From Candidatus Heimdallarchaeota archaeon (GTDB taxonomy: Archaea > Asgardarchaeota > Heimdallarchaeia > JABLTI01), in assembly GCA_019056785.1 (NCBI GenBank), contig DXJV01000005.1, positions 20,716 to 84,715 of the forward strand: DNA of 64,000 nt, read 5' to 3'. This document shows positions 17,607-26,808 of this stretch, piece by piece. Every line of letters begins with the position of its first letter. Positions within the stretch are counted from its first letter, which is position 1. The notes beneath the pieces were generated by a model. That model searched no databases. It was not told the origin of the DNA and saw only the letters and a program-made list of their open reading frames with translations. The position numbers and the translations under genes were made by a program.

Positions 17607-19760
17607 TTGCAGCAGATTCTTGAAGAAGAGACTCGAGAGTTCCATTCACTCTTCGTACATGACTTTAATGTGGATGGTATTTCCGAAATAATTGCTTCAC
17701 GCTTACAAAAAAGTAGCACAGAGATTAGTGTTCTTCATCCCAAACATCTTGCTAATTCTTCTGTGAAAATTAATGAACGCATTAACGTTCTCTGTGTGGC
17801 ACAGACAAGTTTGGATAAAGGCTTTGAATTAATAACTGGCGATATCAAAGGAGTCCTTCGGATCAATGCTAGAAATGGCCGTCCCTTTTATAGTAAAGAT
17901 ATTAAAGATGGCATTCGCTTGCCTTCCAGTATTTTGGCAGCCGCGCCAGGTGATTTGAATGGGAATAAGCTTTCTGAAATAGTCGTTGGTTGTGCAAATG
18001 GCGAAGTAGTAATGATTGAACGCATTCCTGGCAGAAAACACCGGTGGGATAAGATTCGCGGTTTCTCCTTGGGAAAAGTCTTCCAAAAACCAGTGACAAC
18101 CATTCTTACAGGTGATTTCAATGGTAACGGTTATACTGGTTTCATTGCAGGCTCTGAAGATGGTTTTTTCAAGGAGATCGAATTTCGACCGCAATTACAA
18201 AAATTTGACCTTATTGGAGAGTTTAAAGTTGAAAGCCCTCCATCATTTTGTTTCTGTGGTGACTTTGACCGGGATGGTATCTCTGAAGTGATGGTAGGAG
18301 AGCAGTCAGGAAAACTCAATATCTTTAAACGAAATTATTTAATGTCGAGTCACACCTTAGATGGCGCTATAACTTGTGGTGTGGTTGGTGATGTAGATAA
18401 TGACCACCAACTTGAGGTTGTGGTTGGAACTTCTCGGGGCTCTTTTCATATTCTTCGTTCGAATACAATTGAAACACATGAGGGCTACAGCAATATCGCA
18501 GACTTGAAAATCGGCGATTTATACGGAAATAGACAAAATGAATTGATTTTTTCTATAAATAAAAGACGAATTCTTGCTTTTACAATCACACGTGATAAAG
18601 CCTCGGAAAAATCAAATGTTGAGTTGATCCCATTCAAGGACCCGCAACAATTACAAGCACGCACACCACAGCCATCGGTGGCACAAAATGCTTTCTGCCC
18701 GAATTGTAGCTCACAAGTGCGTTTTATTGAGCAATATCGACGATGGTATTGTTATACTTGCCGGCAATATGTCGCACCTGTAAGTAAGAAAGAAGAAGTA
18801 AAACGAAAGGTGCCAACGATCGAGGCGAAAAAGTATGGAACACCCTACAGTGTCGGCTCTCACTATGACCCTTATCGCCCCTATGAACCAACAAGGGAAA
18901 CAGCTGCCGGTGGAGCATCGAAACTTGAGAAAGTAAAAGATAGAGTTGAGAGTAAATTAGCAGATCTTCAGCCTGGGCAAAACCTCGAGTGGCAAGAAGA
19001 AATTGATGAGAATGGTATTGTAGATGCTCAAGAAGATGTGAATTATTTTCTCCCCCTCGATTTAGAAGCTGACTTGGATGTTGGAGTGTCCATTTTTAAT
19101 GACATCCTAAAAATAAAGCACGTAATTCTAATCCATTCCCAATCAGGCGTTCCTCTATTTAGTCAAGGCTTCGGAAAGGATATCGATGTGTCTTTGACTA
19201 GCGGCTTTTTAAGTGCTGTTGGAACTTTTACTGAAGAAATGGCCGGCGAGTCAGAAAAGCGAATTGGAGTCTTTAGTGAAATTGGCCGTGAAGGATTCTG
19301 GATAATAATTTATGAAGGCGAAATGTCAAAAACCGCCCTCCTTGTTAGCGAAAAGATCGGTGAACACTTGAAAAAACGCATACAGATTTTCATGAAAGAG
19401 TTTGAACAAACATTTAAAACAGAACTTGAGAATTTCAATGGCTTTATCTCCGCTTTTAAGGGAGCAACCGACCTTTTGGAAAAACACCTGCGCTTAGAAT
19501 ACCTTTATCCACTCAAGATGGATGCTAAAAGAATGCGGCTAACAGCTATCAACCAAAATGAAAAAACCTTGGCAAAAGCATTCACAGATTTTCTCAGCCA
19601 AACAGACGAAGAGGTTTTCTATGTGACAGAATTAATTGATGTTATTATGCAAGATCCAAAGAATAACCTCCTAAAGGAAGATGTTCTTAAAATTCTTATT
19701 AAATACCTCGAAAATGGCATGTTAATCCCTCTCCCTCCCCCACCAACAGAACATGTTTGA
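17607..19760 (+). CDS. FG-GAP beta-propeller + Zn ribbon + longin + winged-helix multidomain protein
   Basis: Seven DxNxDG/E-hhhG blades (about aa 1-330); CPNC...WYCYTC; HVILIHSQSGVPLF...LTSGFLSAVGTFTEEM longin signature; C-terminal wHTH-like helices; no signal peptide. Confidence 0.8.
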   Translation: MQQILEEETREFHSLFVHDFNVDGISEIIASRLQKSSTEISVLHPKHLANSSVKINERINVLCVAQTSLDKGFELITGDIKGVLRINARNGRPFYSKDIKDGIRLPSSILAAAPGDLNGNKLSEIVVGCANGEVVMIERIPGRKHRWDKIRGFSLGKVFQKPVTTILTGDFNGNGYTGFIAGSEDGFFKEIEFRPQLQKFDLIGEFKVESPPSFCFCGDFDRDGISEVMVGEQSGKLNIFKRNYLMSSHTLDGAITCGVVGDVDNDHQLEVVVGTSRGSFHILRSNTIETHEGYSNIADLKIGDLYGNRQNELIFSINKRRILAFTITRDKASEKSNVELIPFKDPQQLQARTPQPSVAQNAFCPNCSSQVRFIEQYRRWYCYTCRQYVAPVSKKEEVKRKVPTIEAKKYGTPYSVGSHYDPYRPYEPTRETAAGGASKLEKVKDRVESKLADLQPGQNLEWQEEIDENGIVDAQEDVNYFLPLDLEADLDVGVSIFNDILKIKHVILIHSQSGVPLFSQGFGKDIDVSLTSGFLSAVGTFTEEMAGESEKRIGVFSEIGREGFWIIIYEGEMSKTALLVSEKIGEHLKKRIQIFMKEFEQTFKTELENFNGFISAFKGATDLLEKHLRLEYLYPLKMDAKRMRLTAINQNEKTLAKAFTDFLSQTDEEVFYVTELIDVIMQDPKNNLLKEDVLKILIKYLENGMLIPLPPPPTEHV

Positions 19761-26808: not shown

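What the first reader, a model, noticed from the sequence alone, without database searches (positions are those of the whole stretch)
17607..26808. Candidate proto-coat/tether system: beta-propeller-longin protein next to a 2300-aa alpha-solenoid-PCI protein
Seen: two adjacent co-directional genes about 135 nt apart, neither with a signal peptide or an obvious TM helix. One encodes a 7-blade FG-GAP propeller, Zn ribbon, longin and wHTH; the other a very long helical-repeat solenoid ending in winged helices. Known: propeller + solenoid (+ longin) is the parts list of eukaryotic protocoatomer-type assemblies (COPI/AP adaptors, IFT, BBSome, HOPS/CORVET, KICSTOR-GATOR). Inference: the two proteins form a cytoplasmic scaffold complex acting on membranes or small GTPases, an archaeal counterpart of these systems. 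This is the best candidate for an undescribed system in the window.
Basis: partly seen in the sequence, partly recalled or inferred. Interest (0 to 1): 0.88.

Follow-up and report, generated by a model that had tools for sequence, protein, structure and literature searches.

The report
Propeller-longin adaptor beside giant TPR scaffold
Two neighbouring genes of a Heimdall-type Asgard archaeon encode a soluble propeller protein carrying the longin plus winged-helix module common in Asgard archaea, and a 2303-residue helical-repeat scaffold; the parts are real and look eukaryote-like, but nothing yet shows that they form a coat or even bind each other.

Summary
Both genes are real and intact. 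I predict both to be cytoplasmic. Gene A (17607-19760, 717 aa) has a seven-bladed FG-GAP propeller; its best structural matches are BBS2 and ITFG2. This is followed by a Cys4 zinc ribbon, a disordered linker of about 90 aa, a true longin domain and a small winged-helix unit. Gene B (true start 19897, 2303 aa) is a SNAP/TPR-like helical-repeat protein. Its conserved C-terminal 380 aa look like tandem winged helices only at lead level, and "PCI" has no support.

The longin-winged-helix module is a pan-Asgard cassette with 730 representative homologues. It is mostly the cytoplasmic tail of single-pass surface proteins. It is also fused to Ras-like GTPases, HerA ATPases and TPRs. This scan has met the module before in at least 31 other genomes, and this gene pair once in a related genome.

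A and B occur together only in one Heimdallarchaeia family. Their adjacency says little, because about 20 kb around them is colinear, and one relative has a glyoxalase gene between them. B has a 2308-aa paralogue with no propeller neighbour.

My reading: A is a soluble longin-platform adaptor, probably tied to small-GTPase signalling, and B is a lineage-specific scaffold that may or may not be its partner. The resemblance to a coat is only generic.

The parts
17607..19760 (+). Gene A, 717 aa, TTG start: soluble propeller / Zn ribbon / linker / longin / winged-helix protein
   Evidence: ORF. The start is matched by orthologues beginning MQQ. 24 orthologues at 55-86% identity. No TM helix or signal peptide.
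17607..18596 (+). Seven-bladed FG-GAP-type beta-propeller (aa 1-330)
18687..18782 (+). Cys4 zinc ribbon (aa 361-392; CPNC...CYTC)
   Evidence: C364, C367, C382 and C385 are invariant in 24 orthologues. Three short strands in the model. 49-53% identical to ribbons at the C-terminus of four other proteins of this genome, two of them Ras-family GTPases.
18783..19061 (+). Disordered Pro/Tyr- and acid-rich linker (aa 393-485)
   Evidence: pLDDT 27-42 over 394-478. Poorly conserved in the orthologue alignment.
19062..19508 (+). Longin domain with an extra N-terminal helix (aa 486-634)
19509..19730 (+). Small winged-helix-like unit (aa 635-708), then an invariant PPPP tail
   Evidence: Strand, three helices and a strand in the pLDDT ~90 model. 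Conserved together with the longin part in 55 diverse homologues. Net charge -5 in A and -9 to +8 across the family. Not searched on its own.
19761..19896 (+). A-B intergenic spacer (136 nt): conserved ~21-nt motif at 19781-19801, a T-rich tract, an A/T-rich TATA-like stretch and a purine-rich Shine-Dalgarno-like patch before B's ATG
   Evidence: Sequence. Alignment with five orthologous spacers of 125-150 nt. The promoter/terminator reading is inference only.
19897..26808 (+). Gene B, 2303 aa, ATG start: SNAP/TPR-like alpha-helical repeat scaffold
   Evidence: ORF. Orthologues and the database entry start at this ATG. Pfam SNAP 5e-9, plus TPR_12 and MIT below threshold. No TM helix. Orthologues at 38-55% identity over the full length.
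23773..24228 (+). Best SNAP-like stretch of B
   Evidence: Pfam PF14938, best stretch 1299-1450 of the TTG-numbered ORF.
25657..26805 (+). Most conserved long stretch of B (aa 1921-2303); C-terminal region probably holding tandem winged helices
   Evidence: Conservation profile of 7 orthologues, 0.64-0.74. Atlas features nearest to UFL1 (0.90, low recognition). Weak HTH hits in 5 of 8 orthologues. No PDB sequence match. Not folded.

Best explanation
Gene A is a soluble, cytoplasmic member of the large Asgard family that shares a C-terminal longin plus winged-helix module. In most members this module is the intracellular tail of single-pass surface proteins. In others it follows a Ras-like GTPase, a HerA-type ATPase or TPR repeats.

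In A the module is joined, without any membrane span, to a BBS2/ITFG2-like seven-bladed propeller and to a Cys4 zinc ribbon. That ribbon type also ends Ras-like GTPases of the same genome.

Most likely mechanism (inferred, not shown). The longin domain acts as longin domains do elsewhere: as a dimerising platform that docks, and perhaps regulates, a small GTPase or another longin/roadblock protein. The propeller binds a protein ligand. The ribbon takes A to the same site or partner as the ribbon-bearing GTPases.

Gene B is a lineage-specific giant SNAP/TPR-like scaffold. It is probably expressed from the same conserved block and may be A's partner, but that is unproven. The pair is a product of the lineage-specific domain shuffling typical of Asgard eukaryote-like proteins. 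It is not a conserved proto-coat.
For: Shown:
- Domain identities of A.
- The module has 730 representative-level homologues. It matched in 296 of 301 Asgard genomes searched and gave 23 matches in this genome.
- Architectures of the module family: signal peptide + ectodomain + one TM helix + module (P0037, P0039, P0064, P0065; own-genome L023, L024, L002; four Loki paralogues in L026). Ras + module (P0040 and one more of 61). HerA + module (4 of 61). TPR + module (own genome, 694 and 709 aa).
- A itself has no TM helix.
- A's ribbon is 49-53% identical to ribbons ending four own-genome proteins. Two of these are Ras-family GTPases, and one is followed 35 nt later by an 87-aa longin ORF.
- The genome carries 35 Ras-family matches.
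- Full-length A and B occur only in one family.

From the literature:
- Longin/roadblock dimers are GTPase platforms, and Asgard genomes fuse them to GTPases (PMC10933270).
- Asgard eukaryote-like proteins show lineage-specific domain shuffling and many NPRL2-like longin families (bioRxiv 10.1101/2020.10.19.343400).
Against: - No binding partner of the module is known for any member.
- Only 2 of 61 sampled members carry a GTPase.
- No GTPase gene lies next to A or B. The nearest Ras-family genes are about 18 kb upstream on the contig.
- The longin family has no invariant arginine and no family-wide GP motif of the FLCN/SMCR8/NPRL2 GAP type, so a catalytic role is not indicated.
- B was not folded, so its architecture rests on Pfam repeats and composition.
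- A's orthologue group is very strongly conserved in the module and ribbon. This fits a specific partner, which could equally be B.
Confidence: 0.5

Rival explanations
1. One reading: A and B form a stable cytoplasmic propeller + solenoid + longin scaffold. It would act on membranes or small GTPases as an archaeal counterpart of protocoatomer-type assemblies (BBSome, KICSTOR, COPI/AP, HOPS).
For: - The genes are adjacent, co-directional and both cytoplasmic.
- They are adjacent in 9 of 9 same-genus genomes, and both are confined to the same family.
- The propeller's best matches are BBS2 and ITFG2.
- TPR + longin fusions exist in this genome.
- B's start is preceded by a Shine-Dalgarno-like patch in all orthologues, as is usual for internal genes of operons.
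Against: - The whole ~20 kb block, from rubrerythrin to the ABC exporters, is colinear in those genomes, so adjacency carries no extra weight.
- A glyoxalase gene separates A and B in the most distant relative.
- The spacer of 125-150 nt has a T-rich tract and a TATA-like stretch, so B may have its own promoter.
- B's 2308-aa paralogue has no propeller neighbour.
- A lacks the coiled-coil/GAE/platform domains of BBS2/7/9.
- B has no detectable similarity to SZT2 or any solved chain.
- Propeller and solenoid are not on one chain as they are in protocoatomers.
- Other 7-bladed propellers score nearly as high as ITFG2.
- Clearly extracellular FG-GAP propellers of this genome give the same weak BBS2/BBS7 Pfam hits.
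Confidence: 0.2
2. A and B are functionally unrelated neighbours. They are two independent lineage-specific scaffold/adaptor genes that happen to lie in a stable chromosomal block.
For: - The colinearity includes unrelated oxidative-stress and transporter genes.
- There is an inserted gene in one relative.
- B's paralogue stands alone.
- A's module family works with many unrelated N-terminal domains and gene contexts.
- Asgard GTPase/longin genes are generally not organised in operons (PMC10933270).
Against: - Both genes have the same narrow distribution.
- They stay co-directional and close to each other in every contig that spans the site.
- The intergenic motif is conserved.
Confidence: 0.25
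3. The longin + winged-helix module is a sensor/DNA-binding regulator unit. A would then be a one-component-like transcription regulator whose propeller senses a ligand.
For: - The module ends in a winged-helix-like unit.
- Related Atlas clusters carry TrmB or HTH_47 on part of their members.
- An own-genome relative has HTH_45/HTH_34 hits.
- Four Loki paralogues sit among sulfatase and transporter genes, as local regulators would.
Against: - A's winged-helix unit is acidic (net charge -5). The family ranges from -9 to +8, so it is not consistently basic.
- Most members are tethered to the membrane by a TM helix 40-70 residues before the module.
- No DNA-binding family matches the unit at sequence level.
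Confidence: 0.05

Closest known systems
Asgard multidomain longin proteins. These include the 'NPRL2-like longin' and Roadblock/longin asCOGs of Liu et al. (bioRxiv 10.1101/2020.10.19.343400), the longin domain of the Lokiarchaeota Roadblock-Longin protein (PDB 8yqg), and the longin-tailed surface proteins met repeatedly in this scan.
   Different: A is soluble. It carries a cytoplasmic FG-GAP propeller and a zinc ribbon instead of an ectodomain and TM helix. I found this architecture only in one Heimdallarchaeia family.
BBS2, BBS7, BBS9 and BBS1 of the BBSome
   Different: No coiled-coil, GAE, platform or helical C-terminal domains. No BBS4/8-sized TPR partner. B is 2303 aa and SNAP/TPR-like. 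No cilium. The margin over generic WD40 propellers is only about 3-4 Z units.
ITFG2 of KICSTOR (with KPTN, KICS2 and the giant SZT2)
   Same: ITFG2 is the only solved chain matched by sequence (E 1.3e-5, aa 211-283) and is the top Foldseek hit (7e-14). KICSTOR also pairs small propeller proteins with a giant protein and works with a longin-based GAP complex (established knowledge).
Protocoatomer-type coat and tether proteins (clathrin heavy chain, COPI alpha/beta', Sec31, HOPS/CORVET Vps subunits)
   Same: The same two generic fold classes: a beta-propeller and an alpha-solenoid.
   Different: Here they are on two separate chains. The solenoid is SNAP/TPR-like. No lattice-forming, Arf/Sar-binding or adaptor features were found.
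alpha-SNAP / TPR scaffolds, and UFL1 tandem winged helices
   Same: B's repeats hit Pfam SNAP above its cut-off. The features of B's last 260 aa are nearest to UFL1 clusters (0.90).
   Different: B is eight times longer than alpha-SNAP. The UFL1 likeness is a language-model lead with low recognition and no HMM support.

Membership tests
Longin domain superfamily | Five-stranded antiparallel sheet in the order beta-beta-alpha-beta-beta-beta-alpha(-alpha), with helices on both faces | tested here: met
Asgard longin + winged-helix tail family (not named in the literature) | Match over the whole ~225-aa module: longin core with the D..L.SGFL.A motif plus the C-terminal three-helix unit | tested here: met
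   Profile of 55 diverse members scores E 5.6e-67 on A, positions 6-223 of 225. Alignment A3. The Atlas shape search finds the whole module at the C-terminus of Asgard clusters, TM 0.74-0.78.
FLCN / SMCR8 / NPRL2 GAP-type longins | GP motif just before strand 2 and a conserved arginine finger (PMC12290439) | tested here: inconclusive
BBSome propeller subunits (BBS2/7/9) | Seven-bladed propeller | tested here: met
BBSome propeller subunits (BBS2/7/9) | Propeller followed by coiled-coil, GAE, platform and helical domains | tested here: not met
   After the propeller A has a zinc ribbon, a disordered linker, a longin domain and a winged helix.
KICSTOR | ITFG2-like propeller | tested here: met
KICSTOR | Giant SZT2-like subunit and a KPTN-like second propeller | tested here: inconclusive
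   B gives no match to any solved chain, SZT2 entries included, at E <= 1. B was not folded, so no fold comparison was made. No second propeller gene lies in the block.
Protocoatomer | N-terminal beta-propeller followed by an alpha-solenoid on one polypeptide | tested here: not met
   Two separate genes with 136 nt between them. A has no solenoid. A third gene lies between them in one relative.
Protocoatomer | Assembly into a membrane-bound lattice or tether recruited by an Arf/Sar/Rab GTPase | not testable with these tools
   Needs biochemistry or imaging.
PCI domain proteins | Helical-repeat segment capped by a PCI-type winged helix recognisable by Pfam PF01399 or by fold | tested here: inconclusive
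   No PCI hit at E <= 10 on B's last 410 aa, nor at E <= 5 on 8 orthologues. The region was not folded. Only leads for generic winged helices were obtained.
alpha-SNAP family (PF14938) | Score above the Pfam gathering cut-off | tested here: met
   36.4 bits against a cut-off of 25, in 4 stretches. The same family is precomputed on most orthologues. This shows SNAP-like hairpin repeats, not SNAP function.

The most novel reading that the evidence does not exclude
A and B, together with the ribbon-bearing Ras-like GTPases of this genome, form a cytoplasmic propeller + longin + giant-solenoid complex. This would be a free-standing Heimdall-lineage analogue of KICSTOR/GATOR- or BBSome-type GTPase-coupled scaffolds. 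The shared zinc ribbon would bring A and the GTPases to one site, and the longin platform would dock the GTPase.
Probability: 0.12. Interest if true: 0.85.

Novelty: new variant of a known kind. Interest (0 to 1): 0.42.

Why it matters
Asgard archaea are searched for forerunners of eukaryotic trafficking machinery, and propeller + solenoid + longin is the parts list of that machinery. This locus shows that a Heimdall-type lineage built a soluble protein from two such parts. One is a BBS2/ITFG2-like propeller. The other is the longin-winged-helix module that elsewhere forms the inner tail of Asgard surface proteins.

Because A is soluble and well folded, it is a convenient handle for finding out what that widespread module binds. 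If the partner is a small GTPase, or B, that would give a first biochemical foothold on a receptor-to-GTPase or scaffold system in the closest archaeal relatives of eukaryotes.

As it stands, the pair is confined to one family. The coat analogy is generic, so it should not be counted as evidence for an archaeal proto-coat.

Tried and rejected
- Complex prediction. I submitted A 1-392, A 486-713 and B 1929-2303. The tool's verdict was 'no answer' (no support and no evidence against), so it is used nowhere as evidence.
- RNA evidence. No RNA holder was listed for 17300-27000, so co-transcription could not be examined.
- Synteny as a test of linkage. Rejected as uninformative, because the whole block is colinear in the genus.
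- Sequence profiles against solved structures. The module profile A3 gave nothing below E 0.29. B's C-terminal profile A5 gave only chance-level EF-hand matches. Whole B gave nothing.
- Profile-profile comparison of B's C-terminus with A's module: no relation, probability 0.2%.
- Word-indexed search with the module alone found only orthologue fragments.
- Atlas structure look-ups were not possible because the exact sequences are not held.
- Pfam on B's last 410 aa and on A's module at E <= 10: nothing useful.
- Looking for a giant solenoid next to other module-bearing proteins. P0039's contig was too short. The Loki cluster L026 holds four receptor-like paralogues among sulfatase and transport genes, with no giant.
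- FLCN-type GAP reading of the longin domain: not upheld at family level.
- DNA-binding reading of the winged helix: disfavoured by charge.

Full report
WHAT IS THERE

The window lies in a 2.87-Mb, 82%-complete, 38% G+C genome of a Heimdall-type Asgard archaeon. Two + strand ORFs occupy 17607-19760 and 19879-26808. Orthologues start MQQ... and MSQ.... Gene A therefore uses the TTG at 17607 (717 aa). Gene B uses the ATG at 19897 (2303 aa, the length also on record). That leaves 136 nt between them. Neither protein has a hydrophobic stretch that could span a membrane, and neither has a signal-peptide-like N-terminus.

On the opposite strand, the flanks hold an oxidative-stress cluster (rubrerythrin, desulfoferrodoxin, a flavodiiron-like metallo-beta-lactamase protein and a thioredoxin-fold protein) and three transporters (one MFS, two ABC exporters).

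GENE A

An AlphaFold2 model built on 24 orthologues shows four parts:
- a seven-bladed propeller (aa 1-325);
- a three-stranded ribbon (361-392), whose four cysteines are invariant;
- a disordered linker;
- a confident alpha/beta domain plus a helical unit.

So the likeness to the intracellular FG-GAP propellers of eukaryotes is real but modest. It is also not specific. Clearly extracellular FG-GAP propellers of this same genome, which sit before Ig arrays and a TM helix, give the same weak BBS2/BBS7 Pfam hits.

THE MODULE IS A PAN-ASGARD CASSETTE

An exhaustive HMMER search finds 730 representative homologues. A's sequence matches in 296 of 301 Asgard genomes, but outside the genus only over aa ~495-709. 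The own genome gives 23 matches.

The module nearly always sits at the C-terminus. The architectures are:
- Signal peptide + large ectodomain (FG-GAP or LVIVD propellers, Ig, macroglobulin, solute-binding or TSP3 domains) + one TM helix + module. These include a propeller-bearing 849-aa protein (P0039), whose propeller is therefore outside the cell, and two giants of this genome.
- Ras-like GTPase + module.
- HerA-type ATPase + module.
- TPR + module.
- Stand-alone forms of about 250 aa.

Earlier follow-ups of this scan reached the same picture in many other genomes. One of them described this very gene pair in a related genome. I re-derived both points here independently. In the literature, the nearest descriptions are the many Roadblock/longin and 'NPRL2-like longin' families and the lineage-specific domain shuffling reported by Liu et al., and the longin/roadblock-GTPase fusions of Tran et al..

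The GP-motif-plus-arginine signature of GAP-type longins is not a family feature here.

A is the unusual soluble member. It has no membrane span, and its propeller, ribbon and module lie on the same (cytoplasmic) side.

A SECOND TIE TO SMALL GTPASES

A's zinc ribbon is 49-53% identical to ribbons at the very C-terminus of four other proteins of this genome. Two of them are Ras-family GTPases with a long acidic linker before the ribbon. One of these genes is followed 35 nt later by an 87-aa longin ORF. So ribbon, longin and GTPase recur together, in different arrangements. This supports the inference that A works in small-GTPase signalling, but does not prove it. The genome has 35 Ras-family matches, none adjacent to A or B.

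GENE B

Pfam gives SNAP above its cut-off (four stretches), plus TPR and MIT below threshold, and the orthologues give the same. The composition is helix-rich.

Conservation among seven orthologues is lowest in the first 700 residues. It is highest at 781-900, 1021-1200, 1441-1500 and 1921-2303.

The C-terminal region gives only leads for winged helices:
- features nearest to UFL1, at 0.90 but with low recognition;
- weak HTH hits in 5 of 8 orthologues;
- weak RPA_C/RuvB_C hits in the paralogue.

There is no PCI hit and no solved relative by sequence.

B-type proteins were found only in the same family. The genome holds a 2308-aa paralogue, 18% identical over aa 799-2295. Its neighbours are a beta-CASP nuclease and a GHMP kinase, not a propeller protein.

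ARE A AND B LINKED?

They are adjacent and co-directional in all nine same-genus genomes that hold A. But about 20 kb around them is colinear in those genomes, from rubrerythrin to the ABC exporters. Adjacency therefore adds nothing.

In the most distant relative with a long contig (A 55% and B 38% identical), the block is still colinear, but a 185-aa glyoxalase gene lies between A and B. Two other relatives have B cut by a contig end.

The spacer is 125-150 nt in the genus. It holds a conserved ~21-nt motif just after A's stop, then a T-rich tract and a TATA-like stretch, and then a Shine-Dalgarno-like patch before B's ATG. This is compatible either with read-through or with a promoter of B's own.

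The shared narrow distribution and the TPR + longin fusions are weak arguments for a link. The stand-alone paralogue and the inserted gene are weak arguments against one. I put the chance that A and B bind each other at about one in three.

VERDICT

The parts and the cytoplasmic location are right, and a GTPase link is plausible. The system is not Asgard-wide, it has no coat-specific features, and no interface has been shown.

I read A as a soluble longin-platform adaptor, and as a new architectural variant within the known, heavily shuffled Asgard longin repertoire. I read B as a lineage-specific giant SNAP/TPR scaffold. Interest is moderate. Its main value is that A offers a soluble, well-folded entry point for finding what the widespread longin-winged-helix module binds.

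Noticed in passing
window 19781-19801: A ~21-nt motif just downstream of A's stop codon is conserved in five orthologous spacers, whereas the rest of the spacer has diverged. It is followed by a T-rich tract. It could be a terminator-associated or regulatory element.
   Followed up: partly
L011:8089-15015 (G000:C18): A 2308-aa paralogue of gene B, 18% identical over aa 799-2295 and with the same C-terminal pattern. 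It is present in all genomes of the genus. It is flanked by a beta-CASP nuclease and a GHMP kinase, with no propeller-longin gene nearby.
   Followed up: partly
L019:945-2967 (G000:C47) and L020:576-1886 (G000:C14): Ras-family GTPases with a long acidic linker and a C-terminal Cys4 ribbon of the same type as in gene A. The C47 gene is followed 35 nt later by an 87-aa stand-alone longin ORF. Two further ~440-aa proteins (L004, L006) end in the same ribbon but have no recognised N-terminal domain.
   Followed up: partly
L026:2628-18732 (a Loki-type genome, G077:C13); mirrored in L027: Four paralogous ~755-aa proteins (signal peptide, ~480-aa ectodomain with no Pfam hit, one TM helix, longin-winged-helix tail) are interspersed with sulfatase, alkyl-sulfatase-like, molybdopterin oxidoreductase, TauE and MFS genes. 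The arrangement looks like receptors placed beside the uptake and catabolic genes that they might control.
   Followed up: partly
L023:3872-9394 and L024:4318-9609 (own genome, C74 and C31): Giant surface proteins of 1840 and 1763 aa: FG-GAP propeller, Big_7/Glucodextran_B/fn3 arrays, one TM helix and the same longin tail. Their extracellular propellers also give weak BBS2_Mid/BBS7 Pfam hits, which shows that those hits are not specific for intracellular propellers.
   Followed up: yes
L018:12255-12812: In a relative with A at 55% identity, a Glyoxalase_4 gene (185 aa) is inserted between the A and B orthologues. A rubredoxin replaces part of the upstream oxidative-stress cluster.
   Followed up: partly
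window 13685-17302, minus strand: An oxidative-stress cluster transcribed divergently from gene A: rubrerythrin, desulfoferrodoxin, a flavodiiron-like metallo-beta-lactamase protein and a double thioredoxin-fold protein. It is colinear across the genus.
   Followed up: no
other Heimdallarchaeia genomes, e.g. G026:C1:2718939-2719643 and G097:C1:3841-4407: Proteins of about 270 aa match B's repeats 830-1035 at E 1e-4 to 2e-6. Their size is that of alpha-SNAP, so they may be a stand-alone SNAP/TPR-like family of this class.
   Followed up: no
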